From: Eledone cirrhosa | Lineage: Eukaryota | Direction of reading: 5' to 3' | Assembly: GCA_964016885.1 (NCBI GenBank) | Contig: OZ024761.1 | Coordinates: 16,554,001 to 16,618,000 of the forward strand | DNA length: 64,000 bases | Shown: positions 579 to 58,732 of the stretch, piece by piece | How positions within the stretch are numbered: the stretch's first letter is position 1 | How the letters are laid out: each line of letters opens with the position of its first letter | The notes under the pieces: generated by a model | The model's input: only the letters and a program-made list of their open reading frames with translations | Told to the model about the DNA's origin: nothing | The model's database searches: none | Translations under genes and position numbers: made by a program

Positions 579-614
<36 letters not shown>

Positions 615-1494
615 GTGTGTGTATATATGGTGTCTGTGTATATGTATGATATTCAGATACATTTCAATATAATCCACATTAAATAGACAATTTCTGATCG
701 TTTATAAATTAGTATTAGTATTAAAATAACTTATATAAATTTTACTGAGATTATAGGAATGTTTCAAGATGAAATACTTACTGTTTAAACAATTTTAAAT
801 ATAAAAATCTTCCTCTTTTGCGATTCTTACGGTGTACTCACAAGACAGACGAGAGAGGGAGACGTAGGAGGGAGATATATAGAGAGGGGGCGTGAAGAAA
901 GATATATATATATATATGAGAGGGAAAAGGCGAGTAAGCCGGAAAGGCTGATACTGATATACACAGAGTGGGAGTGACAAGTATGGCTGTATAGAGAGAA
1001 AGGGGGTGAGAGATAAGGCGAGATATATATATATTTATATATATGTGTAGAAAGATATTTATATATATATATATAGAGAGAGAGATAAACGGGAGTGGCG
1101 GATATAGGTTATAAAGGGCGGGGGATATAGAAAGATATAGCTTTATAAAGAGAGTGAGCGAGGAAGATAGATAGATATATCAGTATATAGAGAGGGGGAT
1201 GGAAAGTAATACATTTATATAGAGAAAGAGGAGTAAAAGATAGAGCTATCGGGGGAGGGGGTGAAGGATAGCGCTTTTTAAAGGGGAGGAAAAGATAGGA
1301 AGGGCTTTTTAAAGTGAGAGAGAGGGGTAGACGGATATGACTATATAGAGAGAGAAGGTGTTCGTGGTAAAGAGACAAACAATTATATAGATATTAGAGA
1401 GTGAGACAGATAGACAAATATCTATTGAGAGAGGAAGTAAGTGTGTAAGTGAGATAGACTTCCGCTTTAAGAGTAAAGGTAGGAGGAAAGGGAG

Positions 1495-1570
1495 TAAGCC
1501 GTCGCCCGGTATCCGACTCAGTAGGTAACACTGCACATGCGCTAAACGTCAGAGATGACGTAAGGAGTTA
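1495..1570. promoter_or_regulatory. Possible promoter of a minus-strand gene leaving the window to the left
   Basis: CpG cluster with TGCACATGCGC (NRF1-like), ACGTCA and TGACGTAA (CRE-like); CT-rich leader on - and a GTGAGT donor at 836-841. Confidence 0.35.
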
Positions 1571-2329
1571 TATATATTTATATATATTTATATAAAGCTC
1601 GTTTTTCATTAACTCCTCCCCCCTTTTTTCACATAGTAGCTACGATGGCGGTTTCGAGTCCAGGACTCGGCAGAGCATCTTGTAGCAACTCTCTTGGATC
1701 ATGTTTTTTATGTTTGTTTTTTTTTTCCGAGCCAACACGAGACCCTTGACGTGGTCACTGAACCTGCTAGAAATAGGAAGCAAGCTTTCACTCATATCAC
1801 ATGTTTAAAAACAAAGAGGGAGTGAACACATTGGGTCATTGTTTTGGATAAAAGGCAGAATGGTTACGGATGGAATCCGATCGAATATAGGTGTAGTTCG
1901 ATCCTAACTTTCTCCATTAGGACTGATATAGGACTAAATAACAAAAATATCAATAACAACAGTTCTCTCCCTCTATCTCTCCCAATCTCTCTTTCTCCCC
2001 CTCTCTCTTTCTCTACCTGTCTTTCCCTCATCCTCTCTCTGTCACTCTCTTTCTTTCACTATCTCTCTCTCTGCAATATGGCTGGCCCATTGAATTACAG
2101 GTACAGTCAATCTTGTATTATAGTGTAAGTGGCTGAGTATTCCACAGACATGTGTACCCTTGATGTGACTCTCAGGGAAATTCAGCATGACACTGTGTGC
2201 GACAAGGTTGGCCTTTTTCAATCACACTTACAGCCTAGCTGACTGAGATCAAACATTGTATGGTTCATAGTAGTGCAACATGTGCATTAAATGCAGATGT
2301 GTTAGGGGGCAAAAGAATTAAGGTTAGCA

Positions 2330-2900
2330 TGCTCCACTGAATGTGTGGCATTAATGTGCATGGATGACGAAGTATGGATGAGCTGAGAGAAAAACTGGAT
2401 ATAAGAGGAATCAGAGGTAGTGTTTAGGAGAGGAGACTGCACTGGTATGGACATGTGATGTGTATGGAGGATGAATGCTGGATGAAGAACTGAGTATAAG
2501 ATGAATCAGATGTAGTGTGTAGGAGAGGAGACTGCACTGGTATGGACATGTGATGTGTATGGAGGATGAATGCTGGGTGAAGGAATCAGATGTAGTGTTT
2601 AGGAGAGGAGGCTGAGCTGGACTGGATATGTGATATGTATGGAGGATGACTGAGGGAAAAACTGGGAATAAGAGGAATCAGATGTAGTATGTAGGAGAGG
2701 AGACTCCACTGGTATGGACATGTGATGTGTATAGATGATGAATGGTGGGTGAAGAAGTGCCAGATCTTCCAAGTGGAAGGAAGCCACAATAGAGGAAGAC
2801 CAAGGAAGATCTGGGCAGAAACTGATCTCAAGGCACTGCTCCTAACAGAAGAAATAACAAAGAAATGCAATGAGTGGTGGGAGGCACGCATGGAAAAATG
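2330..2900 (+). mobile_element. Degenerate RTE LINE 3' fragment with internal tandem duplications
   Basis: Repeated GGAGAGGAGACTGCACTGGTATGGACATGTGATG segment (RRLHWYGHVM), about 4 times. Confidence 0.75.
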
Positions 2901-3931
2901 ATTATATATATATATATATATATATGAGGGTCGACTGAAAAGTTCATAGGCAGACAAAGATACTCTCATGAAATGACCAAATGAAGTTTATTTTTTCAAC
3001 ACACATATATATATATATATATAACAAAGAAGGTGTGGAAAGATACCAGGTGGACCAAAACACGCCAAAGTACTCGATACTTAGGGTAGTAGAGTGGGTA
3101 ATGGGAAAAGAGTCAGGACCCCGACAGCTGAGCTCTGGCTGAGTTCCGGCCGTTTCAACAGCTAGATCCAAACTGTTCGGATCTAGCTGTCAAAATGGCC
3201 AAAGTTCAGCTGTCGAGGTCCTGAATCTTTTCATATTACCCACTCTACTACCCCAAATATCGAGTACTCTGGTGGGTTAGGGTCCATCTGGTACCTTACT
3301 ACACTCTCTCTGATATATATATATATATATTTTAATGCTTGACCAGCTTCACCCACTCCCTCTTTGTTCTACAGGCAAGTTCAGCCATGCCCCACCCCCT
3401 ACCCACCGCCATGAAAGATTTAACTGTGTTTCCAAGAAACTTCAACCAATCCTTTTGATAACTACAAACTTCAGAAATGCATGCTTATCGCTTGCCCATA
3501 TATGGAATTACCCCTTGAAAAGTTTGGCTATATCATTACTACGCTAAAAATTTAATTTAGTCCAGATATAGTTGTTGAAACGGCTTGATTTCTGCCGTCG
3601 GGGTCCTGAACCTTTTCCTAAATATACATATATATATATATATAACTTTAATAATAATATCAGTATTGCTATTAGTCGGTATATACTTAATCAGAAGGTT
3701 TAAGGTTCAATGCAGTAGGGTTCATGCAAAGCTGATATATAAAGAATAATAAACACTATTTCTGATGATTGAAGTATGAAATTATAATGGAACCTTAGAT
3801 AAGAACTCTTTTTTCTTAAGAAAATTCTAAGATTCCTGATTTTATAGCCTCATATCCTCGGGATGAATCTTTATTCGTTGAAACATGTGTTAGTTAGACA
3901 ACATATAGACTCTTTGGTGTTTATTATTCTT

Positions 3932-4117
3932 GGTGGATTGGCAGTATCAGTAGAGGGTCGGACGCCATGCTTTCCAGCATAGTTACGTCCCTTTACGATC
4001 TGAGTTCAAATCCCGCCAAGGTTGACTTTCCCTTTCATCCTTACGGGGTCGATAAAATAAAGTACCAGTAATGCACTGGGTAATTGCTGGCCTTGTGCCT
4101 AAAGTAGAAACAATTAT
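3932..4117 (+). mobile_element. tRNA-derived SINE with Nin-like central domain (copies at ~5776, 16505, 16700, 49205(-), 59525, 60635, 61306 and degenerate 43100-43700(-))
   Basis: A box TGGCAGTATCAGT, B box GAGTTCAAATCC, core GACTTTGCCTTTCATCCTTACGGGGTCGATAAAATAAAGTACCAG. Confidence 0.85.
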
Positions 4118-4136
4118 TCTTTATATATATGTATGT

Positions 4137-4176
<40 letters not shown>

Positions 4177-4179
<3 letters not shown>

Positions 4180-4615
4180 TTAGTGGTTAGAGCATTAGCC
4201 TTGCAATCAAAATGTTGTGAGTTCAATTCTCAGACCGGGTGATGTATTGTTTCCTTGAGCAAGACACTTTATTCCACATTGCTCCAGTTTACTCAGCTGT
4301 AGAAATGAGATGATAGGACTGGGGTCCCTATCATTCCACTGCAAAGTGGTCGTGGAGTTGCCACGGCAAAAAAAGCACCCAGCCCACACTGTAAAGTGGA
4401 CGTGTAGGCGCCACGGCAAAAAAGCACCCAGCACTCACTGTAAATGAGGTTGGTGTTAGGAAGGGCATTCAGCTGTAGAAATCAAGCCAGAATCAGTTCC
4501 TGTATGAGCAAGACAAGGTCAGCCGACCGGATTCTGCCCACAACAGGACAACCAGTCCAACCCATGCTAGCGTGGAAGAACGGACGTAAAATGGTGATGA
4601 TGATGATGATGATGA
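4177..4615 (+). mobile_element. Second tRNA-derived SINE with LINE-like (GAT)n tail (copies at ~13665, 16010(-), 62383 and many tail fragments)
   Basis: GGCTTAGTGGTTAGAGC...GAGTTCAATTC head, CCTTGAGCAAGACACTT core, GGTGTTAGGAAGGGCATCCAGC-like segment, ...AACCCATGCTAGC...(GAT)n tail. Confidence 0.85.
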
Positions 4616-4905
4616 TATATATATATATGCATGTATGTAAAAGGTAAACAGAAATAACAACACAATCGCTACAGTATATGGAAGGAATATATTAGGTTAA
4701 CGCTTGATATAACAAGAAGAGGGTCTTAACATTTCAGATGCTAGTCCTTCATCAGAAGAATAAGATAAATAAAGGGACGGGCGGGGTGGAATTGGAAAAA
4801 AATGTCTTTAGATAAAAATAAGAGGTCCATTCATGTTGACATGCATACACATTTATCATTCTAGCTATTTATCTATTTATCACTCTAGCTATCTATTACT
4901 CTATC

Positions 4906-4938
<33 letters not shown>

Positions 4939-5059
4939 TTATCTATTTATGAAGAAGGAGGAAAGGGCAAAAATGATATAATTATCTTTACATAAACCAA
5001 CTAATTAAATATTTTTACACAAAAACATAATTGTTGTCGGAGTAAACAACAATAACAAC

Positions 5060-5750
5060 ACCAGTGCTGATGATAATGGTGGTGGTGGTGGTGGTGGTGG
5101 TGGTGGTGGTGGTGGTGGTAGTGTTGATGATAATGGTGGTGGTGGTGGTAGTGGTGGTGGTGGCGGCGGTGGTGATAGTGTTGATGATAATGGTGGTGGT
5201 GGTGGTGGTGGTAGTGTTGATGATAATGGTGGTGGTGGTGGTAGTGTTGATGATAATGGTGGTGGTGGTGGTGGTGGTAGTGTTGATGATAATGGTGGTG
5301 GTGGCAGTGGTGGGAGTGTTGATGATAATGGTGGTGGTGATGGTGGTGGTGGTGGTGGTGGTGGTGGTGGTGGTAGTGCTGATAATAATGGTGGTGGTGG
5401 TAGTGTTGATGATAATGGTGGTGGTGGTGGTGATAGTGTTGATGATAATGGTGGTGGTGGTGGTAGTGCTGATGATAATGGTGGTGGTGGTGGGAGTGTT
5501 GATGATAATGGTGGTGGTGATGGTGGTGGTGGTGGTGGTGCTGATGATAATGGTGGTGGTGGTGGTGGTGGTGGTGGTAGTGCCGATGATAATGGTGGTG
5601 GTGGTGTTGGTGATAATGATGGTGGTGATGGTTGTGATTGTAATGATGATAATGATGATGATGATGATGATGATGATGATGGTGATGGTGATTGTGATGG
5701 TGGTGGTGGTAGTGTTGATGATAATGGTGGTGGTGGTGGTGATAGCGGTC
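5060..5750. repeat. Compound (GGT)n/(GAT)n microsatellite
   Basis: Direct reading. Confidence 0.95.
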
Positions 5751-6211
5751 AATATATATATATAATATAATATATATATAATATATAACTCAGACGGTCT
5801 GAGTTCAAATCCCGCCGAGGTTTACTTTGCCTTTCATCCTTACGGGGTCGATTAAATAAAGTACCAGTAATGCACTGGGTAATTGCTGGCCTTGTGCCTA
5901 AAGTAGAAACAGTTATGAAAGATGGTAATTTTCAAAACTTAGATTTAATTTATTAAGCAAATAAAACTGTGTCGATGACACAGCAGTCCACACTGTAAGG
6001 GGGTCATGTAGGAGACACAGTGAAAAGGCTCCCAGTCCACACTGTAAATGAGGTTGGTGTTAGGAAGGGCATCCAGCTGTAGAAAAAAAAAAACTGCCAG
6101 AGACGCTTCCGTGCGAGCGAGACATGGTCTCTCGACCATTCCCGCATCAAATGGAACAAAACCGTCTAACCCATGCTAGCGTGGAAGATGGACATTAAAC
6201 AATGATGATGA

Positions 6212-6260
<49 letters not shown>

Positions 6261-6339
6261 ACATGCCCCAGCATGGCCTCAGCCAGATGGCTGAAACAGG
6301 TAAAAGAGTAAAAGAGATATATGTATATATATATATATA

Positions 6340-7615
6340 CAGGGTGTGAACGATATTTGTTCGCAAGATTACTGTCTAGGAAAAAATAACACAGTAGTTT
6401 TATTTTTTAAGATTTATTTATCAAACTTGGGTCAGTTTGTCTTCATGACTTGTTCTTTCGATATCACTTGATAAACCCACCTTTTGGCTTTGATGACGGC
6501 CTCAAGGCGGCCTCGGAACCGGCTACAGGCCTTCGTCACTGTCCCCCGACTTAGGCCCCTAAAGGCACTTGTGATCCTGGCCTTCAGATCGTCTTTCGTA
6601 TTGCAGTTAGATCTGTTGGTGTCTCGTTCCACTGCGCCCCACACAAAGACGTCAAGGGGGTTGCAGTCAGGCGAGCTGGGAGGCCAGATGTCAGGTGAAG
6701 TGTGGTCGATGAAGTTCTCTGACAGCCAGGCTTGGGTCTTTCGGCTGGTATGGCAGGGCGCTGAGTCTTCTGCCACACGTACGGCCTACCTGCAGCTACC
6801 TGGTCGATCCAGGGTTTTACTACCTTGCTCAGAATGCAGATGTAGCCATCGGTGTTTAGCTTGAGGCCTTCAGGGAAGAAGTGATGTGGCATGATGTCAC
6901 CTTGACCGCTGATGACACCTAAGACCAATGTTGTCGCTGGAAACTTTGTCTGCATGACTCTGGGCACGTCTTTGGATGAGACAGCGAGCCACCCATTGTT
7001 CTGGGAGTTGATCTTCTGGTCTTGGCAAAAGTTTTTCTCGCCGGAGAAAAACCACAGCATGTCTGGGTGTTTCAACTTGTTGATCAGCTTCTTTGCGTGC
7101 TTCAGTCGCTTTTCTTGTATCGCACTTTGACAGAAATTGTCCTTTCCTCATCTTGTATGAAACGTAGCGAATGTCTTCATGTACTACCAGCCTAATGAGC
7201 TTTTAATCCACGCCTTTCTCCCTTGCAATGGCATGCATCGACTTGCTAGGTTCATTATTGATGATATCCTGAACTTCAGCGACGAACTCGGGCATTCTAA
7301 AGGCGTCAGATCGTCGATCATGTGTTTTCCTCTCTGATGTTGCTTCGTAGTCGAATCCTGAATCTTCTAATTCCTTTCTGACCTTTTCCACCATTCTCCT
7401 GCTGATGCTGGGAAAGTCTGAAATTTCCTTATTTGTCCTCTCGGCGCGGATTCCACAAATTTGGAGGTTCAAAATTATTCATAATCAATTATTCTGAAAA
7501 TAAATAATGGAAATATAGTCACTGTTTTTATGAAGACAAGAGTGACAACGGAAGTAAAAAAAATTTGCATAAAATTAGCAGTTGAAAATTGCGAACAAAT
7601 ATCGTCCGCACCCTG
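6340..7615 (-). mobile_element. Full-length but decayed Tc1/mariner transposon, maT (DD37D) family
   Basis: ~27-bp TIRs CAGGGTGTGAACGATATTTGTTCGCAA and its near-perfect inverse; TA flanks; frameshifted transposase with FSGEKNF (D to G), DSAPCH and SPDCNPLD; 37 residues between the last two Asp. Confidence 0.93.
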
Positions 7616-46604: not shown

Positions 46605-48178
46605 AAAACATAGTTTTAACACAATGAGTTGCGGCCAGAGTTAAGACAATTTGAAATCTTTTCCATCAATTGTTAAAATCATTTAGTCGTCCATTACGCT
46701 TTAGTTACATAAACACACAACTATAGTGATGTTGCGTCCTCTAAAGTTTACCAGCTACATAGCCTTTTAATACCGACCAAGCCAAAACCGGCTCTGGTAC
46801 TATGAAACAAAACCATACATTTTAAAGAGTCCCTATTTAGCATTTTTGCTAACCAATGAAACAAAACTATCCATTTTAAATGGTCTCTATTTAAACTTGC
46901 TCTTGTTCTGTGAAACATAACCACCCATTTTTAAGGGTTTCACTTATCTTTTTGCTACCAACCCAGCTGATTCTATGACACCAAATTAGCCCCATTTTAA
47001 AGTGATCCTCTTCAAATTTAAATTTTCCAACACAATTTTATATAAGATTCACATGTAATGAAATCATTTTAGTAAATCCCTCAAATTTGGATAAAAACTG
47101 ACAGACCAGCAAGATTTATATTAATTTAAATCTATTCTGTATCAATAAGTTTTGCTATTTTACCTCTACAGTTATAAGAGCTAAACTTCAAAACTATACT
47201 ATTCTGATGACTAGCAGTCATCTTCAGCCTTGTATTCCCGAGAGGATCATCAGACACATCTTGCAAAGAATTCTTCCAGATCCCCAAATGAGACCAATTA
47301 AGCCGAAGGGTGCTATACATACATCAATCTGTCTTGTGGCCTAGCCTCTGGGACCCTTACCAGTTGGCTTTGCCCATAAAATCTATCCAGCAATTCATTC
47401 CTTAGACATTCTAACCACATGTATGTAGTACTGGAGCTATGATGTCTCAAATCAGAGAAGTAGCAACTCCCCGATCTACACACCCTATTGAGTAACGTTA
47501 CTCCAAAGACCCTTCGGAGGAACCCCTATTTCGTCTACTTGTATTTGTTCAGGTATTACCCAAGACTTAGAAACACGGAACTGAAGCTAGCAAGTTTGGT
47601 TTTTACACTAACCTCCGTTTATCAGATGACCGAGTGCTGCAGCTAAAGCACCATTATAAGAAGACAGTCCATTAAAACCATGAGCCTTGCAATAACTACT
47701 AATGCACAGCTCCAGAAATAACACAGATTTAACCCTTCCATAAATTAATTCTTATGAAAAACACTGCCTATGTATTTCTGTTATTTTGAAAATCAATAAA
47801 CACTTTGATGAATTTAATAATAAATTTTTTTTTTTTTTTTAAGCTAATACTTAGAACAAAGAAAAATTTCTAAAATATAATTATGTTGGAAGGCTTTAAT
47901 ACAACGGTAAACAGTCTAAAACCAATAGGTTTCTATAAAACCAGGCAAGTTAGGGTAAAAATTTACAATATTTCATCAACAATACATTAGTGACATTATC
48001 AACTACCACAATATTAACACCAGTAACACAGTCACAACACACCAGTGGCACTAGACGACAATAACACTTCACAATACATCATAGAGTACCACAATATTAA
48101 CACAGACTGTCACAACACCTCAATACCAACAAGAGACGAAGGCATAATCTTTACAACTATTTATTCCCAAAGACACAC

Positions 48179-48340
48179 TTAGAATAACATCTTGTGTGGG
48201 TACATCTTATTTTTCAATGCAAACATTGACTGTAAGTATCCCTTCAATTGTTTTCCTTGTTTAGATTTCTTGATGGCCTCAAGAACCTTCTTGTCCACCT
48301 CCAACTGGTCTTCTTTACGTTCCTTGGTCAAGCTGTACTC
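48179..48340 (-). CDS. RPL6: RPL6 last coding exon (joined CDS 843 nt, 280 aa)
   Basis: EYSLTKERKEDQLEVDKKVL...LKGYLQSMFALKNKMYPHKMLF* matches the typical eL6 C-terminus; AATAAA at 48160-48165 (-). Confidence 0.97.
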   Translation of the reverse strand, partial: EYSLTKERKEDQLEVDKKVLEAIKKSKQGKQLKGYLQSMFALKNKMYPHKMLF

Positions 48341-48933
48341 CTGATAAAACAAATTTAGAAAAAAAAAAAAGATTAAAACACTCTCCCCATATTACCATTT
48401 CTACATTTGCTTTTCTAAACTGGCATGGGCCATATGAGACATTCTTGAGGCAGTGTTCTCTGGCCCAGCCAGCAGCTTTCCTAAGCCGCAGGACATGCCT
48501 CCCAAAAGCCAACTGCCAGGAGACCCAACCATATCACCCAGAAATAGCTGCTTCTAGATGTGATCCTCAGGAAGGCATATTTGTGAACTCGGCCACCCAG
48601 ACAACCCTCTCAGGAATAAATGGGCGAAGAACAGTTTTTGGAGTAGTTAAAACAGGCAATAACTTATGTAAATTTTTCTTAATAGATGCAAATTGATGTT
48701 TTAACCCTTTAGCATTTGCACGACTATATTTACTATTGTATTTTCATGGTAAAGGCTTTATCTCATATAAATATCTCACATATCAAATTTGAGATTTTGA
48801 TATCTATTTTGAGAACAATACCTGAATATCAGTATGAGTGGCTAGTTGCAGCTGGTTTGAACTGAAAGGGGTGAGAGAATTCTGGCCAGATATGGCCGGT
48901 TTAAATTAACTAAAACCATCCACAGGACTTTAC

Positions 48934-49118
48934 CTTTTTCTCTGTTTCAAACAATTCCACTTCCTTGTGTTTGTTAGTTTTCTTGGCCTTCTTCTTGAAG
49001 TAGGTGTCAGTAATCCTGGCTGGGAGCTTTACCTTCTTGATGTCAGCTCTGGCCGTGGTGGCAATTACATAGATCTGGTTCACACGACGTAGTGGACAGC
49101 CATTCAACACAAATGGAC
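48934..49118 (-). CDS. RPL6: RPL6 coding exon 4
   Basis: GPFVLNGCPLRRVNQIYVIATT...TDTYFKKK...ELFETEKK; 185 nt; phases match neighbouring exons. Confidence 0.97.
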
Positions 49119-49607
49119 CTGTAATAATGAAACACAAACAGTTACCGAGAGAGACAAGAGGCTGACAGAAATGGGATGTAGGTAACACAAATGGATCTGT
49201 AATTAATTGTTTCTACTTTTGGCACAAGGCCAGCAATAACCCAGTACATTACTGGTACTTTATTTTATCGACCCCCTCGGCGAGATTTGAACTCAGATCG
49301 TAAAGGGACGTAACTATGCTGGAAAGCATGTCCGACCCTCTACCGATAATTTAATGAAACACAAACAGTTAGAGAGAGAGAGACAACAGGCCGACAGAAA
49401 TGGGATGTAGGTAACACAAATGGATCTGTAATTAATGAAACACCAACAACTAGACAGACAGATCTGGTCGACAATGCAGAGGAGAGAAAGGTGATAGATG
49501 GTATACAGATAACACAAATGGACCTGTACTTAGTGAGAGACAGACACAGGTCTGGTCGACATGTATAGTAGGGAACCATACAAAGAAAACAGCAATTCAG
49601 CAACATA

Positions 49608-50420
49608 GTGAGACAATATACACATGTGCTGCGCTCACTGATAATAACCATCAACATGGGTATTCAGGGGATTGACAGATCAATGGAACTCATACCTGTC
49701 CACATAAACAATCGCTGTGTCAAAGTCATACCTGTTCACATAAACAATCGTTGTGTCAATCAAAGTCATACCTGTCCACATAAACAATCGCTGTGTCAAA
49801 GTCATACCTGTCCACACAAACAATCGCTGTGTCAAAGTCATACCTGTCCACATACACAATCGCTGTGTCAAAGTCATACCTGTCCGCACAAACAATCGCT
49901 GTGTCAAAGCCATACCTGTCCACACAAACAATCGCTGTGTCAAAGTCATACCTGTCCACACAAACAATCGCTGTGTCAAAGTCATACCTGTCCACATAAA
50001 CAATCGCTGTGTCAAAGCCATACCTGTCCACACAAACAATCGCTGTGTCAAAGCCATACCTGTCCACATACACAATCGCTGTGTCAAAGTCATACCTGTC
50101 CACACAAACAATCGCTGTGTCAAAGTCATACCTGTCCACATAAACAATCACTGTGTCAAAGTCATACCTGGACACACAAACAATCGCTGTAGCCAAATCA
50201 TCAGAGAAAGAACAAGATTTGCTGGACATTGCCAGAAAGAAAAGGATGGGATCATCAGCGAGATTCTTCTTTGAGAAGCTAAGCATGGGTACAGAAATGT
50301 TGGTAGACCATATCGAACCTACGTACTGTATAGCAATTGTGCGAGGGCTCTAAGTGCACCCGAGAAGGCCTACCTCAAGCAACGGCAGACCAGACTGGAG
50401 TGAATGAATGATGGAGATCC
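49608..50420 (+). mobile_element. Old RTE-like LINE 3' remnant split by a 36-bp minisatellite (RPL6 intron, antisense)
   Basis: YTHVLRSL... before the array and SQIIRERTRFAGHCQKEKDGIISEILL*EAKHGYRNVGRPYRTY after it. Confidence 0.65.
49689..50190. repeat. 36-bp minisatellite, about 14 copies
   Basis: Unit GTCATACCTGTCCACACAAACAATCGCTGTGTCAAA. Confidence 0.95.
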
Positions 50421-50701
50421 ATTTCCATAGTTACAAACTAAAATTGATGATTGTATCTGGAGACAACTGTGGAAATGAAACGCTGAGAATTTTGATGCAG
50501 AGGCAGCACAAATGCCCGTTCACCACAAGGAAACTATCAATGCACATACTGCCAGATTGCACTAAGAAATATGGGATAATCTTGTAAATATTTGTGTATG
50601 TGCATAAATTATTGAAAAATAGACAAGAGCCTGGCATATAAAATACCACATGCAATAGGTTGAAACAGTTATTAATAATAAGCAGTGGTTAAGTCCCTTA
50701 C

Positions 50702-50750
50702 CTGTGATAAGGAGCAGACCACTGCTGAGCTGCTTCAGGAATACAACACG
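50702..50750 (-). CDS. RPL6: RPL6 coding exon 3
   Basis: RVVFLKQLSSGLLLIT(G); 49 nt; canonical splice sites. Confidence 0.97.
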
Positions 50751-51930
50751 CTGGAACAAAGACGGAAATTTTAAGAAACCTTGATATCAACATTGGAAAA
50801 AAATGGCACGTGTGCATATGTATACACACCCAGACATGAAATCTGTTTACATTTTACTCAGACACGACAAAACCATATTTGTATATAAGTAGGATTGAAG
50901 TCACTGTTGCAGCATATGCAGAAACTTTATTGGCACATTACAGTTGTTTCAATATTGATCAGCTCAGAGTACAATCATAGGGGCCCAACCCTTCCTTAAA
51001 ATCTCAGATATGAGAGTTTATGTGCAAAAAACATTCAAACTGTTTTGTCTTTGCACATATAAACCCGTATATCTGATGAGATGTTGAGGCTAACGTTGGG
51101 CCCTGGTCATTATAATTGTACCCTCAGCTGAACCATATTGAAACAATTGTGATATGCCAATAAAGTTTATTATATATTATATACGTCACAACAGTGACTT
51201 CAATCTTATTAAAAGTAACTACAGGCGCCCAAACTCTGGAATATAACCAAACATGAGACGGACCTTTTAACAGCAAACTAGTTACACATTTACCTAACAC
51301 ACACAGCTATGTATACACATTATCACCAACACTAACAGAGTATTTTCCATGCTTGCATGAGTTAAACAGGCAACCATGCCTTGCTTTTCTACAGCTGGGT
51401 GCCCTTCCTAAACTGAATCGCTTTATAGTATGTACACCGGAACATTTTTCCTGGCACCAACGCTAACCTCAGAGGGCAGGACAAAGGCACATCTTTTTGT
51501 GTCATTACATATATGCGAACAGTCTGTTCCCAAAACCACACACACACACATAACACTATTCACCACACAGCAATGGGATGCATTGCATAACATTTGTATA
51601 AAGACCCCTCTGTACATATTAGCTAACATGGAAACTATGGCACTCTAGAAATAGCAACTGAATTACCCCCCTATCTTAACAGTCCATAGATGATACATGG
51701 GCAGTGCTGGATATGTCAGCTAGTAAATATCACCACCACCATAATATACACGAGTTCGTGCCCAACATGTTACAGCTACTAAACATCACAACCACCACAC
51801 AAGACTGTGGCAATATACCACAATTATTATGAATTACAACCACTTCTACTAACAATAAACCGCTCTCGTCATATACATACATTATACAATGCACAAATTT
51901 GGAACTACAACAACAACATAAATGACCTAC

Positions 51931-52071
51931 CTTTCCCTTATGTCTTCCTGCCAGAAGAATAAGTACTGTTCCGGGAACAATAGATTTACGTAAATTACGC
52001 TTGTGTTTGGAGAATGGCTTCCTATGCCTGGATTTTATCTTTTTACCTTCCTGTGTGGGGATATGGCGAGG
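51931..52071 (-). CDS. RPL6: RPL6 coding exon 2
   Basis: PRHIPTQEGKK...LRKSIVPGTVLILLAGRHKGK (KOW-like eL6 motif); AG/GT boundaries; 141 nt. Confidence 0.97.
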
Positions 52072-52637
52072 CTGGAACAAACAAGCATTTCAATATGTAA
52101 ACCAAGAGCTCTCATATCATTTAACATCCATTTTTCTACATTATATGATATATATATATATAAAAAGCCCCCCTTCAGTCCCTAATAACCATGGTTTTGC
52201 ACCTAGAAAGTTTCCCTCCAAGACACAAGCCTGGGCAAGGTTCTTTTGTGGAAGACCAGCAGTCACCTACACATACTAGCCTCCCCTTTCAATGTTCTAT
52301 ATGGCTTCTACTAGAGCAATTTGAAATAAAGTCTCTTGCTCAAGGACACAACCTCATTATTACAAGACCAACGCTCTAACCTCAAAGCCATGCACCTTCA
52401 TGATCTTTTTAAAAAATAGTTTATCTCCAGCAAATGAAAACTTTAGCAAATATATTATTTATTTCAAATATAAACTATAACTCGGCCATATATTTATAAC
52501 TAATTGCTTTTTACTTGAAAAAAACTTGCGCTTTACTTTGCACAACTAATCGACTGCTTTGCATATGTTTCTGTATAGAAAAAAAAACTATTATTTCTTT
52601 ATTGACTATAAATTCTTGTATTCTCCAAATCCTACAG

Positions 52638-52861
52638 CAGTGGTTCCCCACCTCAACATCTAAAATATGTTATTTGTCCCGATTTGATATAAAATACAAA
52701 CTGAGTTTTGTAAAAATCGACCCCAAAGTGTAAACAAACTGCTTGTAGGTGCTGCCAGATACGCGATAATATGTAGACGAAGTGTAACTGGAAGTTTGGT
52801 CGTATTATATCACTTTCCAATTGTCTCCCGTGGGGCGTGCATCCCACGTTGGGAATCACTG
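52638..52861. mobile_element. hAT-type MITE in RPL6 intron
   Basis: TIRs CAGTGGTTCCCCAC / GTTGGGAATCACTG; 8-bp TSD TCCTACAG / CCCTACAG. Confidence 0.8.
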
Positions 52862-52910
52862 CCCTACAGTGATGTGCTGAGGACATTTTAGCGCTAACTG
52901 GTAACATTAA

Positions 52911-53129
52911 CCCTTGCTACCAACCCGGCAAAAAACCAGCTCTGGTTCTATGAAATAAAAGCACCCATTTTAAATTAAAATCTTCCAACATAATTTAATA
53001 TAAGAACCTTATATTATATTAAGTTACTATCCTTAGTAATGAAATAAGATAATTTTAGTAAATCCCTCAAATTCTTCAATAACTAATTGAAACAGAATGC
53101 ATTTCATTAGAAATATGGTAATGAAAGGG
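52911..53129. mobile_element. piggyBac-type MITE
   Basis: TTAA-CCCTT ... AAGGG-TTAA termini. Confidence 0.6.
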
Positions 53130-53242
53130 TTAAAATTGAAACTTTCGCAGACGTAAATAAAATGATCACCTGGTTGTCACTCGATTAAAATTTATACACA
53201 TACACATATAAATATTTAAAAAAAGGGCAGTTGTTGGCTTAC

Positions 53243-53548
53243 CAATCGATTAATGCGGACTTTTCTGGTCTCGCCGTTTTTCTCACCACCAATAGGTTTA
53301 TTAACAAAACTGGATGCTTTCACCTTCTTTACTTTCTTTGTCCTTGGCTGATCCTTTACAGCAAAAATTCTCTTCCTCTTGTAAACTTGAGACCTAGAGA
53401 AACGCCTCAAACCAGTTGATGAGATAACTGGATTGCGTGGGCGACGATGCTTCTTAGGTGCTGTTTTCTTAGCTGCAGTTTTCGCAGGTGCTGTTTTCTT
53501 CGACACAGCTTTCGCGGCTGGAGCCGCTGGCTTCTCCTTTCCCTCCAT
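53243..53548 (-). CDS. RPL6: 60S ribosomal protein L6 (eL6), coding exon 1 (gene exon 2)
   Basis: ATG at 53548; MEGKEKPAAPAAK...RRPRNPVISSTGLRRFSRSQVYKRK...KPIGGEKNGETRKVRINRL resembles the eL6 N-terminus. AG acceptor at 53559-60, GTAAG donor at 53242, phase 0. Confidence 0.95.
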
Positions 53549-54228
53549 AATGAAGTCACTGCAACAGAAATATTGAAACATTGTCATAATTAATTTAACC
53601 AACTTAGAAGATTTAATGTAAATTGTACTCGTGTGTATATATATATATATTTATTAAAATAACAGATTAAATTTTAAGCAAAGGATCGCTGCTTTCACCC
53701 TTAACGGGATCTTCTGAAACTGTTTCAGAAGATCCCGTTAAGGGTGAAAGCAGCAATTCTTTGCTTAAACTTTAATCCGTTATTTAAATAAATATTTGCT
53801 CTACGGTTCTTATATATTTATCCTTATCGAGCCCTCTTTGGATTTTAGTCTTCAAATTTATTATTATTACTATATATATATATGTGTGTGTGTGTAGGGA
53901 GAGAGATGACCAAGTAGTAAACCTATTCCAATATATATACACACACACTCGCAGCTCCACTATGAGTAAGGTTCGGCACTGCCAACTGGCCTGACTCTCC
54001 TCATAACAGTGCCAGCCAGTTCCGCACTGTAAATATCCCAGCCAAAATACAGTTCCATCTGAGCAAGGTGCACGCAGCCAGACTTGTCTCATGACATGGG
54101 CGACCAGCCTAACCCATGGAAGCATGAAAAAAATAGACATTAAACCATGATGATATTATAGGGATGTGTCGAGAGAGAGAAAACTAAATAGTGTTCCTTC
54201 TCCAATATATATACCTAGGTGTGTGTAT

Positions 54229-54295
54229 GTGCTCAGTGTTAAAAGATTTTCATCAACAATTCAGTGGATTGACAGATAACATTACATCATAGCTA
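54229..54295 (-). ncRNA. Box C/D snoRNA copy 1, SNORD110-like target (18S Um1288-equivalent)
   Basis: ATGATGT (C) ...ATCTGTCAATCC-A-CTGA (guide + D') ..TTGATGA (C') ..CTGA (D). The guide is complementary to 18S GGAUUGACAGAU; sense to RPL6 intron 1. Confidence 0.88.
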
Positions 54296-54779
54296 CAACA
54301 CGCCACCACATATTACATTATATTATAGCCACTACAACAATACATCAGCTTTGGAGGGAAACTGAAGCTCTTAAGAGAACAGACAAAGGCTTCAAAAAAC
54401 GTTATCTTTGTCCATTCCCTTTAGTTTAGATTGCCCTGAGAGCATAACCTTATGACATAATGAAGCTGTTTTATGAGATCATGGCTCTGGTTGCATGAAA
54501 TCACGTGACCAGTCATCATTGAAATATACAGGCCAAAGCATACATACAATATGCACCACCCCACTCCACGAGTGGCAGTACATGGTATGCATCATGTGAA
54601 GCCTCCAGCCCAATGTAAATGAGGTGTTAAGGAAGGGCACCCAGCTGTAGAAACCATGCCAAAATCAGTTCTGTACGTGCAGGACATGGTCACCTGACCT
54701 AGCATTGCCCACAACAGGACAACCCACCTAACCTGGATAAATTGACATAAAATGGAGATGGTGATACAGGTGTATGTAT

Positions 54780-54845
54780 GTGCTCAGTATCTAGGTTTTC
54801 ATCAATAATTCAGTGGATTGACAGATGATATTACATCATAGCTAC
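54780..54845 (-). ncRNA. Box C/D snoRNA copy 2 (same guide)
   Basis: Same four boxes and 12-nt 18S guide; spacer before box D differs from copy 1. Confidence 0.88.
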
Positions 54846-55541
54846 TACACACCACCACCACCTCGTTTCGACAAAAAAGTGATCGATAAAATAAAAGATT
54901 GCCTTGAGAGCATAACCTTATGACATAATGAAGCTGTTTTATGAGATCATGGCTCTGGTTGCATGAAATCACGTGACCAGTCATCATTGAAATATGTATC
55001 ACAGCCTTATCAAAAAAGGACCCTAACATCTACAATAACTTCACATTTTCTTACTCTAAGTATACTCTGTCGTTCCTATTTGGAAGTAAAATGACATTGA
55101 GTACTTGAATTGAATTGCATCATAAGTATATATCTATATACGTGTGTAGAACAAAATAGTGACTATATATAAGTGTTTGTGTAGAGAAAGAGTAAGTGAA
55201 CCTATCATGCTATGTTAGTGCTACTAATATATATTGCCAGGTGGTGTTGTAGTTAGACTCAATTGGGTCTAAGTTATAGGTGTATGTGTGTAAACCAGGT
55301 AATGACAATATGTCTCATATATAAATCAGGATGGATTCAGTTTCAAACTGGTTAGACCATTACTCAGAGGACTCAATACTTAAGGTAATACAGTATGGTT
55401 AAATTATAAAAAGTCGGGATACCGACAGCTGAGCTCTTGAAATATCTACAGCTAGTTCTAGTCTGGAACTAGCTGCCGAAACAGCAAGAGCTCAGCTGCC
55501 GGAGCCTCGACTCTTTATAATATATAAACAGGTGCATGTAT

Positions 55542-55612
55542 GTGCTCAGTGTCAAGATAAGGTTTTCATCAACAATTCAGCGGATTGACAGATAACATTA
55601 CATCATAGCTAC
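55542..55612 (-). ncRNA. Box C/D snoRNA copy 3 (same guide)
   Basis: Boxes and guide intact; the unpaired base before D' (A to G) and the D-proximal spacer vary. Confidence 0.88.
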
Positions 55613-56363
55613 ATCACACCACCAATACTTCTACAACATAGTTACTACAGTGACAATATACCACAGTTACTACACACAACATACTTAGGTAGGCTTATCA
55701 AGTCCCAGTTCTGCCACGAAAAGTAATGTGAAATGGAATGCTTTGTTGAAGAACAAACAAGCCACCCAGTCCAGGAACCAAACCCATGGCCTTGAAAAAC
55801 TTAAGATCAACTTATTGGAAGTGGCCCTACTTCAATACATATATATATACTTACAGCGTGAACTGGGGACATTTTGTGGTTTTGTGACTAAAAGCACCTA
55901 GCATACACAGCAAATGTGGTTGGCGTTAGGAAGGGCATCCAACTATAGATATCAACACTAAACCAGCCATCTTACCCGATCTCTCCCAAAGGAACAGCCT
56001 GTCCTATTCATGTTAGTGTGGAAAATGGACGTTAAACGATTCATGTTTTTATTGGCAGCATGAGACCCCCCTCCCCCCAAAAGCATATATATGTATATAT
56101 ATATATACAGATACAGGCCAAAGCATACATACAATATGCACCACCCCACTCCACGAGGGCAGTACATGGTATGCATCATGTGAAGCCCCCAGCCCAATGT
56201 AAATGAGGTGTTAAGGAAGGGCATCCAGCTGTAGAAACCGTGCCAAAATCAGTTCTGTACGTGCAGGACATGGTCACCTGACCTAGCATTGCCCACAACA
56301 GGACAACCCACCTAACCTGGATAAATTGACATAAAACGGAGATGGTGATACAGGTGTATGTAT

Positions 56364-56429
56364 GTGCTCAGTATCTAGGTTTTCATCAATAATTCAGTGG
56401 ATTGACAGATGATATTACATCATAGCTAC
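56364..56429 (-). ncRNA. Box C/D snoRNA copy 4 (same guide)
   Basis: Apparently identical to copy 2; lies in a ~365-bp local duplication. Confidence 0.88.
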
Positions 56430-56811
56430 TACACACCACCACCACCTCGTTTCGACAAAAAAGTGATCGATAAAATAAATCCCCCCCCCCCCCCCCAAAA
56501 AAAAAGAGAGTACGAGGATCAATGATCAATATAATCGATTTAACCAAAAACGGTGCCACCGCATGGCCGCAGTCTGATTGAAACAACAACAAAAATACAC
56601 ACTCGTCTTTTTTGTTTTATTTTGGTAAATATAAATTTTTACCTAAGAAAATAATAATATCAAAGCACATTTATTTGCTTAAATTTTCTAAAATACTGCA
56701 TTGATTTACATAATTAGTCTACTCCAATGTATCAATTAAGTACTTCGGGAATATATATACATATGTTTTTCAGTAAACCTCCTGCAACCAAGAGGTACAC
56801 GTGTATACATA

Positions 56812-56908
56812 CAGGGTGTCCCCCAAAATTATATACACACTTTGATTACCTGTACAGGCAATATTTATTAGAATGCTGTATAAGTGTATACATTTTGGGG
56901 ACATCCTG
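56812..56908. mobile_element. Tc1/mariner-type MITE, same family as 37254-37411
   Basis: TA-CAGGGTGTCCCCCAAAAT ... ATTTTGGGGACATCCTG-TA. Confidence 0.8.
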
Positions 56909-57058
56909 TATATACAAACATAGGTGTGTAATTGTGCATTTATAATATAAAATAAATAGAAGTACGGTACATCGTAGATCAATGTGAAAATCAATGATTT
57001 TGGTAAGACTACGAGGAGATATAGTGTACGCGTGTGTATATTTAAATACATATATACA

Positions 57059-57231
57059 CGAGGGTCAGCTGAAAAGTACATAAGCAGTGCTAGAGGAGTG
57101 AAATCTTGCATGACAATTTCAACTCTTATTAATAAGTGCATTGTTCTTTCCACGGATTATGTTGACAATAAACCAATTTGATCGCTCCATGAGAGAGAGT
57201 ATCTTGCTCAGCCTTTTTCAGTTGATCCTCG
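57059..57231. mobile_element. Mariner-type MITE (partial copy at ~2925)
   Basis: CGAGGGTCAGCTGAAAAG ... CTTTTTCAGTTGATCCTCG-TA. Confidence 0.7.
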
Positions 57232-58183
57232 TATTTACTAGGGTTTGTTTTACAAAATAGGCCTATAAATATTATTGTGCAAAAGTTGTGAATTTTAGAT
57301 CTTAATGTTCATGAAGCCTTTTATGGAGTAATTAGATCGAATTAATTTCTTTCGATCTCTCTACAGACACATATTTTGCATTGAAGACTTCCAATTAAAA
57401 CAACGGCATTTCGATCTACATTAAAAATCTTCATGTATACGTTGTGCTCTAGCATTAATATTTATTATATATATATATATATGTGTGTGTTTACGTTTGG
57501 AAGGGCATCCAGCTGAAGAAACCAAGCCAAAATCAAACTACTCTAATCCATGCTAGCGTGGAAAAATTGGCCTAAAACGGGAATATATCAGCACGAGGTA
57601 AAAAGTGCTTAGTACCAAAACAGATAATGTATGTATATTTATTACATTACTGAAATCGCACAGATCTAGAGTAGTAGAGACAATCAACCGAGTGACATAT
57701 ATATATATTTATTTATTATATAAACACACACTACGTATTTAATAAAATCCATGTTGTAAAGACGAGGAAGATAAAATTGAATAATTTAATGCGACCCGAC
57801 CCATATATACATTATATACATATAATACACGTGAATCTACCCCCATGTGGAATTAGCTAAATATAGATAAGGATAGTTATATAGAGCACAGTAAATGATA
57901 TACATATATGTCATCAATTTAAAGTAGACATAATTATTAAGACAATGTGGTTCATATTAAAATAGTATCGCCATTTATATAAAAAGAAATTTTCGATCAA
58001 ACCCGAAACAGAAAAACATGTCTTAATACTAATTTAAAACGATCAATCAAATTAATAAAGCATAAAAACGTAAATAGATATCACCTCAGTTATTTTACTG
58101 TGAGCGATGGAAATAAATTTAACGTAAAAAGGCAGGATTAAAGCAGATTTTTAAGGAGACGTGAAAACAAGCATTATACTTAC

Positions 58184-58208
58184 ATTCAAGTAATGGCTAA
58201 AAAGAAAG
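58184..58208 (-). promoter_or_regulatory. RPL6: RPL6 non-coding exon 1 with TCT initiator / 5'TOP tract
   Basis: Minus strand reads gtCTTTCTTTTTagccattacttgaat|GTAAGT: a pyrimidine tract typical of ribosomal protein gene starts, followed by a perfect donor. It would splice to the acceptor at 53558. Confidence 0.8.
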
Positions 58209-58391
58209 ACACACAAACTGATGACGTTTTACTCAAACTACGTTCGTCATTGCTAGCTACACCGGACAACCGGAAGCGGAAGTATGCCGTTATGTTGCCG
58301 TGACGTAGTTCGCAACCGCTCTGTTTGCAATTTAGGGGGATTTTGCAGTTGTTGCTGTTAAATCACTAAAAAGTTCACTTTTCAGCTAATA
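58209..58391. promoter_or_regulatory. Bidirectional promoter shared by RPL6 (-) and INO80E (+)
   Basis: Locally CpG-rich; tandem ETS/GABP-type sites CCGGAAGCGGAAGT at 58270-58283; CRE/ATF-like TGACGT at 58222 and 58301; lies between divergent first exons. Confidence 0.8.
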
Positions 58392-58437
58392 ATGATGCCT
58401 GTTTCCGCTTCCAGTGCGGCGACAGTAACAAACACAG
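58392..58437 (+). CDS. INO80E: INO80 complex subunit E, coding exon 1
   Basis: ATGATG...MMPVSASSAATVTNT(D), donor G|GTATAT, phase 1 matching the next exon. Confidence 0.75.
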
Positions 58438-58732
58438 GTATATATATTATATATACATACTATATATATTACTATTGTTTTTTCTTCACTTCTTCTCCCT
58501 CTCTTCCTATCTAACTTAGCTTGACATTTGTAGTTGTTATTGACAATAGTGATGGTGCACTCGGCAAGGAACAGGGATTATCTGCTCCCTCCCCTCACAC
58601 CCCGCCACTATCTACACCTTTGTGTTTAACTCATCCAAGTTCAAATCCCTCCAGGATCTGATTAAATTGCCCCCCTCCCCCTCCTTTTTAAAAAAATTCT
58701 TCCCGCATCGTTAAAATATATCTATTCATCTG

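What the first reader, a model, noticed from the sequence alone, without database searches (positions are those of the whole stretch)
54229..56429. Four copies of an 18S Um1288-type box C/D snoRNA within one RPL6 intron
Seen: four sense-strand copies conserving boxes C, D', C', D and the guide ATCTGTCAATCC while spacers diverge, each with flanks able to form an extended stem (GGTGTGTAGTAGC / GCACATACATACACC). Known: the D'+5 rule places the methyl on the first U of 18S GGAUUGACAGAU, which is human Um1288 guided by SNORD110; vertebrate intronic snoRNAs are normally one per intron. Inference: a polycistronic intronic cluster needing endonucleolytic release, unannotated non-coding exons, or one-copy-per-transcript processing, in a host gene different from the vertebrate one.
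Basis: partly seen in the sequence, partly recalled or inferred. Interest (0 to 1): 0.75.

Follow-up and report, generated by a model that had tools for sequence, protein, structure and literature searches.

The report
Four methylation-guide RNAs in one intron
The long first intron of this animal's ribosomal-protein L6 gene holds four intact copies of a known small RNA predicted to guide one methyl mark on ribosomal RNA, instead of the usual one per intron, so the copies would likely have to be cut apart by a step not yet identified in animals.

Summary
Confirmed and extended. These five are the only exact guide-plus-D' matches in the 3.0-Gb genome. The guide pairs with this genome's own 18S at the human Um1288 site (SNORD110/snoR14 clan; scores below Rfam's cut-offs). 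Three old copies show selection: 0 of 34 box and guide columns vary, against 13 of 27 spacer columns. The fourth is a very young 370-bp template-switch duplicate. All four lie 0.7-2.8 kb from the 3' splice site and have long flanking stems, which fits splicing-independent assembly. One RNA-type run confirms four downstream splice joints and shows no exon inside intron 1. It cannot exclude micro-exons, and the exon 1 joint was not seen. The same genome packs six U14 copies into 2.5 kb. The release mechanism and expression are untested. Intronic clusters are a known minority arrangement, and this scan noted similar ones on other DNA (RPL34, eRF3). New variant of a known kind; moderate interest.

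The parts
58184..58208 (-). Inferred non-coding exon 1 of RPL6 (pyrimidine-rich TOP/TCT-like start, GTAAGT donor at 58183)
   Evidence: Sequence; the joint to exon 2 was not listed, so this is inferred
53559..58183 (-). RPL6 intron 1, 4625 nt, host of four snoRNA copies
   Evidence: 3' end marked by TTGCAG ten bases before the ATG
56352..56442 (-). snoRNA copy c1 with flanking stem (box C 56423, box D end 56368); likely donor of the young duplicate
55530..55625 (-). snoRNA copy c2 with flanking stem (box C 55606, box D end 55546); old middle copy
   Evidence: (snoR14, 29.2 bits, E 0.026); contig break at 55584
54768..54858 (-). snoRNA copy c3 (box C 54839, box D end 54784), identical to c1; young copy
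54217..54309 (-). snoRNA copy c4 with flanking stem (box C 54290, box D end 54233)
   Evidence: (SNORD110, 24.4 bits, E 0.37)
54526..54895 (.). 370-bp segment copied from 56111-56479 (5 differences), flanked by a 100-bp direct duplication (54428-54527 / 54896-54995)
56111..56479 (.). Likely source segment of the 370-bp duplicate (c1 plus an interspersed repeat)
53243..53558 (-). RPL6 exon 2 with the start codon (Ribosomal_L6e_N)
51931..52071 (-). RPL6 exon 3
   Evidence: joints
50702..50750 (-). RPL6 exon 4
   Evidence: joints
49690..50190 (.). 13.8 x 36-bp tandem array made of the 5' flank and start of box C of copy c5
49635..49693 (-). Fifth, degenerate snoRNA copy c5 in intron 4: 13-nt guide, D' and C' kept; box C reads ATGAGTT, box D reads GTGA
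48934..49118 (-). RPL6 exon 5 (Ribosomal_L6e)
48163..48340 (-). RPL6 exon 6 with the stop codon (Ribosomal_L6e)

Best explanation
RPL6 intron 1 holds four locally duplicated box C/D snoRNA genes of the SNORD110/snoR14 type, each predicted to guide 2'-O-methylation of the 18S uridine equivalent to human U1288, and each likely assembled without help from splicing through its long flanking stem and likely freed by cuts between the copies followed by trimming. Shown: the copies, boxes and guide; 12-bp complementarity to the genome's own 18S; constraint on boxes and guide in three old copies; the young duplicate; distances of 674-2809 nt to the 3' splice site; predicted stems. From established knowledge: the D'+5 rule (recalled) and the need for an extended stem in copies far from the 3' splice site. 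Inferred: expression of each copy, methylation at the site, and an internal endonucleolytic cut by an unidentified nuclease.
For: Boxes and guide vary at 0 of 34 columns and inner spacers at 13 of 27 among c1, c2 and c4 (Fisher p 3e-6; gap-free 8 of 22, p 2e-4); none of 6 flank comparisons beyond the stems beats shuffled controls. So the old copies, including the middle one (c2), have been kept intact for a long time, which simple end-protection of one long RNA would not require. Flanking duplexes are reached by 13, 48, 13 and 19 of 500 shuffles for c1-c4. Own 18S target present in 4 of 4 loci read. No other host found (0 of 30 looser hits inspected had a box C or a full-length model match). 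No acceptor-donor pair between c3 and c4 or between c4 and exon 2; GTRAG donors number 3 against 6.9 in shuffles. Run X4 shows spliced joints at depth 1231-4001 but depth 2.1 in the bin holding c4 and no listed joint into intron 1. A second cluster of six U14 copies lies in 2.5 kb of the same genome. Splicing-independent endonucleolytic release is described for animals (XendoU in frog).
Against: No small-RNA or methylation data. No cleavage signal or nuclease was identified: the hairpins between copies are high-copy repeats. A stochastic one-copy-per-transcript model predicts the same conservation, and gains from four copies if per-copy assembly is below about 0.3. The copies were recognised by their guide, which biases the constraint test. 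The stems are GT/CA-rich, c2's stem is not significant, and no compensatory changes were demonstrated. All Rfam scores are below cut-off.
Confidence: 0.45

Rival explanations
1. No internal cut: assembly far from the branch point is inefficient, so most spliced introns load one copy only and exonucleases trim to it; extra copies simply raise the yield.
For: Needs only known machinery (debranching plus 5' and 3' trimming). All copies lie far from the 3' splice site. Toy yields rise from 0.10 to 0.29 per transcript for 1 to 4 copies at p = 0.1. Predicts conservation of middle copies.
Against: At p of 0.5 or more, four copies give less mature RNA than one. A six-copy U14 cluster would need p below about 0.17 to gain from all copies. 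Long stems are the feature reported to support processing at a distance.
Confidence: 0.25
2. Hidden micro-exons, minor 5'-UTR exons or recursive splice sites split the intron so that each old copy has its own lariat, as in ordinary host genes.
For: A permissive scan finds a 26-nt candidate between c1 and c2 and a 21-nt candidate between c2 and c3; one acceptor lies 74 nt after box D of c2, the usual distance. One search is blind to such short pieces. Fly copies of this guide (Me18S-U1356b and c) are one per intron.
Against: No candidate between c3 and c4. Donor words are not enriched (3 against 6.9). The 74-nt acceptor lies inside a repeated inverted element. The 33 letters ahead of exon 2 in the X4 contig fit neither candidate's 3' end by my reading of the sequence, though they do not fit exon 1 cleanly either.
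Confidence: 0.15
3. The main product is a snoRNA-ended long RNA (sno-lncRNA) protected by c1 and c4, or several copies are passive duplicates and only one supplies the guide.
For: This is the documented outcome for two snoRNAs in one human intron. c3 is too young to show selection, and c5 shows that copies can decay.
Against: The old middle copy c2 keeps all boxes and the guide while its spacers and flanks diverged. No other locus for this guide was found, so mature guide should come from RPL6.
Confidence: 0.12
4. Part of the cluster (c3) is an assembly artefact.
For: c1 and c3 are identical, and no listed contig piece bridges either end of the 370-bp duplicate.
Against: The duplicate has 5 differences and an A-B-A' insertion shape, not a plain tandem repeat. 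A contig of run X1 starts at 55584, where a 31-letter graph should branch if the 32-letter word shared by c2 and c4 occurs twice, so at least two copies stand in reads; X1 may be the assembly's own sample.
Confidence: 0.03

Closest known systems
Human SNORD110 (HBII-55, RF00610) and Arabidopsis snoR14 (RF01280), Rfam clan CL00076
   Same: Same D'-linked guide (aligned letter for letter to the snoR14 model for c2) and equivalent 18S site, Um1288 / Um1232.
   Different: Human SNORD110 is alone in an intron of NOP56; here five copies sit in RPL6. Scores of 22-29 bits are below the gathering cut-offs of 40 and 64.
Drosophila snoRNA:Me18S-U1356b/c in Uhg8
   Same: Several copies of a C/D guide in one host gene; taken as the same 18S site from recall, not tested.
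   Different: Listed as mono-intronic in a non-coding host (2 of 3 rows seen).
Drosophila intronic H/ACA clusters; rice intronic snoRNA clusters
   Same: Several snoRNAs in one intron (passages; the rice paper was seen only as a title in a reference list).
   Different: Fly C/D snoRNAs follow one-per-intron; here the clustered class is C/D, in an animal.
Human sno-lncRNAs and SNORD49A/B
   Same: More than one C/D snoRNA in one intron of an animal gene.
   Different: Two snoRNAs and a long product there; four paralogues of a canonical rRNA guide with a conserved middle copy here.
Yeast Rnt1-cut polycistronic snoRNAs; Xenopus XendoU release
   Same: Precedents for endonucleolytic release.
   Different: No cleavage signal or enzyme was identified here.

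Membership tests
Box C/D methylation-guide snoRNA | Box C (RUGAUGA) near the 5' end and box D (CUGA) near the 3' end | tested here: met
   c1-c4: ATGATGT (6 of 7) and CTGA, 56-61 nt apart. c5 has ATGAGTT and GTGA, so it is not met for c5.
Box C/D methylation-guide snoRNA | Internal D' and C' boxes | tested here: met
   CTGA and TTGATGA in c1-c4; CTGA and TTGATGG in c5
Box C/D methylation-guide snoRNA | 10-21-nt antisense element to rRNA just upstream of D or D' | tested here: met
   12 nt (c1-c4) and 13 nt (c5) perfect complement to own 18S, one base before D'
Box C/D methylation-guide snoRNA | Terminal stem closing the kink-turn | tested here: inconclusive
   Predicted stems of -13.9 to -21.0 kcal/mol; 13-48 of 500 shuffles reach them; no compensatory changes shown
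Box C/D methylation-guide snoRNA | Accumulates as a small RNP and directs 2'-O-methylation | not testable with these tools
   No small-RNA or RiboMeth data were at hand
SNORD110/snoR14 clan CL00076 | Rfam gathering score | tested here: not met
   24.4 of 64 bits (SNORD110) and 29.2 of 40 (snoR14); filed as a functional counterpart, not as a formal Rfam member
SNORD110/snoR14 clan CL00076 | D'-guide aimed at the 18S Um1288/Um1232 site | tested here: met
Intronic snoRNA cluster | Two or more snoRNAs share one intron of the main host transcript | tested here: inconclusive
   No joint into intron 1 in run X4 and no splice-site pair between c3 and c4; the exon 1 joint was not seen and micro-exons are not excluded
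Endonucleolytically processed polycistron | Cuts between units give unit-length snoRNAs | not testable with these tools
   Needs end-mapping of RNA
sno-lncRNA | Stable long RNA with a snoRNA at each end | not testable with these tools
   Needs non-poly(A) long RNA data

The most novel reading that the evidence does not exclude
This animal lineage makes canonical C/D guides, including essential U14, from multi-copy single-intron arrays that an unidentified nuclease cuts apart: a plant- or yeast-like polycistronic route working inside animal introns, still expanding by template-switch duplication.
Probability: 0.35. Interest if true: 0.72.

Novelty: new variant of a known kind. Interest (0 to 1): 0.42.

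Why it matters
How animals free several snoRNAs from one intron is not settled by the reviews read here: human pairs give sno-lncRNAs, fly H/ACA clusters exist, and no general animal counterpart of yeast Rnt1 is named. This locus is a compact test. Its copies differ in sequence and can be told apart in reads, it has a conserved middle copy, a newborn copy and a decaying copy in one highly expressed gene, and a six-copy U14 array lies in the same genome. The guide and its target are ordinary.

Tried and rejected
Rfam at gathering score over the window: 0 matches. Genome search with RF00610: 2 weak unrelated hits, 64 of 282,284 candidates scored, uninformative. No RNA holder was listed by the run search; this is no evidence either way, and run X4 proved RNA-like only by its splice joints. 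RAD-seq run X5 gave only repeat-derived reads over the cluster. Patterns for other guides: U33/U32-type, 5 scattered hits, none clearly a snoRNA; U25, 2 hits, one real and single-copy; U14 exact pattern, 0 hits because the local sequence differs; U36-type, 0 hits, and the motif is absent from own 18S; U18-type, 15 scattered hits of one identical word, taken as a repeat and not inspected. So of five other guides probed, U14 is clustered, U25 is single and three told nothing. A looser pattern gave 41 hits: 5 in RPL6 and 36 elsewhere, of which 30 were inspected, most resembling one repeat family and none with a box C. My stem-filtered scanner missed the four known copies, so its blanks carry no weight. 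miRNA-family hits are inverted repeats far below cut-off. No other CTGA-linked rRNA guide of 11 nt or more was found in RPL6 introns 2, 3 or 5. Two papers were not held. Searches for cephalopod snoRNA organisation and for invertebrate single-intron arrays listed no paper whose title or abstract start describes this locus; most subscription journals are not searched.

Full report
What is there. The region is the 5' part of an RPL6 gene on the minus strand: Pfam L6e_N and L6e hit 3 of 4 exon translations, and run X4 joins exons 2-3, 3-4, 4-5 and 5-6 at canonical ends with depth 1231-4001 (laid on 48100-58300). X4 is listed with kind unknown; I take it as RNA because of these joints. The first exon is inferred from a pyrimidine-rich start at 58208 and a GTAAGT donor at 58183. 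Its joint to exon 2 was not listed. The X4 contig over exon 2 has 23 unlaid letters and runs 10 letters past the acceptor with 3 differences in all, which no good donor in the laid stretch explains; this stays unexplained. The genome is 3.0 Gb with a 2.9-kb 18S. That it is an octopus is my recall from its repeats; no call names it.

The copies. Four copies lie in intron 1 (box C to box D: 56423-56368, 55606-55546, 54839-54784, 54290-54233) and a fifth in intron 4 (49693-49635). The guide-plus-D' pattern has 5 matches in the genome, all five in this gene, against 0 for the reversed control and about 1.5 expected by chance. A DNA search finds only the four intron-1 copies. A looser pattern gave 41 hits, 36 outside RPL6; the 30 inspected had no box C and scored at most 13.7 bits with a model built from the five copies. 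RPL6 is therefore the only host found.

Family and target. Rfam gives nothing at gathering score. Below it, c1-c3 match snoR14 best and c4 and c5 match SNORD110 (c4 also SNORD36 at a similar score and a weaker E-value); snoR14 and SNORD110 form clan CL00076. The genome's own 18S holds the complement in 4 of 4 loci read, and the five copies are the only box-linked rRNA guides of 11 nt or more on the gene's strand in the window. By the D'+5 rule (recalled) the methyl falls on the first U of the target. SNORD110/HBII-55 guides human Um1288 and snoR14 guides Arabidopsis Um1232 (5 passages of bioRxiv 10.64898/2026.09.11.751006; 12 passages of PMC3511168; 5 passages of bioRxiv 10.1101/2022.07.18.500496). 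Human SNORD110 is mono-intronic in NOP56, and fly Me18S-U1356b/c are mono-intronic in Uhg8 (supplement rows of PMC11028025; the file was cut when stored).

History. c1, c2 and c4 share only about 95 nt; 0 of 6 comparisons of 200-nt flanks exceed shuffled controls. Within the shared part, 0 of 34 box and guide columns vary against 13 of 27 spacer columns (p 3e-6), and 5 of 32 stem columns vary. The copies were recognised by their guide, which inflates this contrast somewhat. c3 is young: 54526-54895 copies 56111-56479 with 4 substitutions and 1 indel, none in the snoRNA, and sits between two copies of a 100-bp target. I infer a template switch. A contig of X1 starts at 55584, where a 31-letter graph should branch if the 32-letter word shared by c2 and c4 occurs twice; X1 may be the assembly's own sample, and no listed piece bridges the ends of the c3 duplicate. 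c5 keeps a 13-nt guide, D' and C' but has degenerate C and D boxes and abuts a 13.8 x 36-bp array of its own 5' flank; it is likely decaying.

How the copies would be made. They lie 2809, 1987, 1225 and 674 nt from the 3' splice site, and each has a predicted long stem (13, 48, 13 and 19 of 500 shuffles reach it). Published work says that snoRNAs about 75 nt from the 3' splice site are processed with splicing, while more distant ones need extended stems (5 passages of PMC4150776; 8 passages of PMC12205218). Debranching and trimming alone would leave one long RNA ended by the outer copies, as in human sno-lncRNAs (12 passages: first part of the Introduction, PMC11028025). That would not need a middle copy, yet c2 is intact. 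Two models fit. In one, cuts between the copies free each (precedents: yeast Rnt1, frog XendoU; 9 passages of PMC10557570). In the other, low per-copy assembly leaves one copy per intron; toy yields favour four copies only below p of about 0.3. I put 0.45 on internal cuts and 0.25 on one-per-transcript. No cleavage signal was found; the hairpins in the intron are high-copy repeats.

Hidden exons. X4 depth is 2.1 in the bin 54238-54578, against 600-6700 in exon-holding bins with little repeat signal, and none of the 15 joints shown (969 more not shown) enters intron 1. Donor words are not enriched (3 against 6.9) and there is no acceptor-donor pair between c3 and c4 or between c4 and exon 2. 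I leave 0.15.

Is it general here? Of five other guides probed, U25 is single-copy and sits about 50 nt before a likely acceptor, three probes told nothing, and next to U25 lie six U14 copies in 2.5 kb, each with flanking stems. They are 6 of 8 full-length U14 matches in the genome. Only two donor-like and two acceptor-like words lie among them, but no RNA was laid there, so a single intron is inferred.

Comparison and novelty. One-per-intron is the predominant animal rule, and fly C/D snoRNAs follow it while fly H/ACA snoRNAs cluster (6 passages of PMC3089462; 9 passages of PMC1821038). Intronic clusters are nonetheless a defined category. In the searchable part of the PMC11028025 supplement, 108 strings read intronic-cluster C/D against 805 mono-intronic C/D (all kingdoms, only rows whose columns run together, file cut). 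The 19 shown are human or macaque rows, many of them SNORD114 or U3-like copies, and two C. elegans C/D rows appear. Searches listed no paper on this locus or on cephalopod snoRNA clusters (listings only). Earlier notes of this scan report 9 copies in an RPL34 intron and 16 in an eRF3 intron in other genomes (unchecked). Verdict: a real, selected, multi-copy C/D cluster of a known guide in a new host; a variant of a known arrangement whose release step is open and testable. Interest 0.42.

Noticed in passing
window 49635-50190 (minus): Fifth, degenerate copy of the same snoRNA in RPL6 intron 4, with its 5' flank amplified into a 13.8 x 36-bp tandem array; its guide has the longest match to 18S (13 nt).
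   Followed up: yes
L030:7189-9733 and L031:10-767 (G000:C5:33.0037-33.0072 Mb, minus): A probably non-coding host gene with a pyrimidine-rich start carries a 28S-guide candidate (weak snoU2-30 match), one U25/snR56 and six U14 copies in 2.5 kb, each with flanking stems.
   Followed up: partly
L044:5082-5173 and L045:4925-5019: Two dispersed single U14 copies on other contigs; the L045 copy carries flanks of one cluster member, and the L044 copy ends in a C-run and A-run.
   Followed up: partly
L030:9641-9733 against own 18S (L011): This U14 has an 11-nt match near 18S position 85, while its guide before box D pairs over fewer than 10 nt, with extra letters relative to the recalled consensus.
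   Followed up: no
window 53559-53568: The X4 contig over exon 2 runs 10 letters into the intron end with 3 differences in all and leaves 23 letters unlaid; neither the inferred exon 1 nor any good donor in intron 1 explains this cleanly.
   Followed up: partly
window 58184-58460: RPL6 shares a short promoter with CCGGAAG-type repeats with a divergently oriented gene whose first exon seems to end near 58438.
   Followed up: no
window 53647-53795, 55400-55524, 50922-51168: Inverted-repeat elements inside RPL6 introns; the first two are high-copy in the laid runs. The one at 55400-55524 starts 22 nt after box D of c2 and contains an acceptor-like site.
   Followed up: partly
L048-L074: Variants of a widespread interspersed repeat contain the same 16 letters as the guide's 3' part plus D', without any box C; probably chance.
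   Followed up: partly
L010-L013: 18S rRNA genes span about 2,870 nt, against 1,831 model positions, and occur on several contigs.
   Followed up: no
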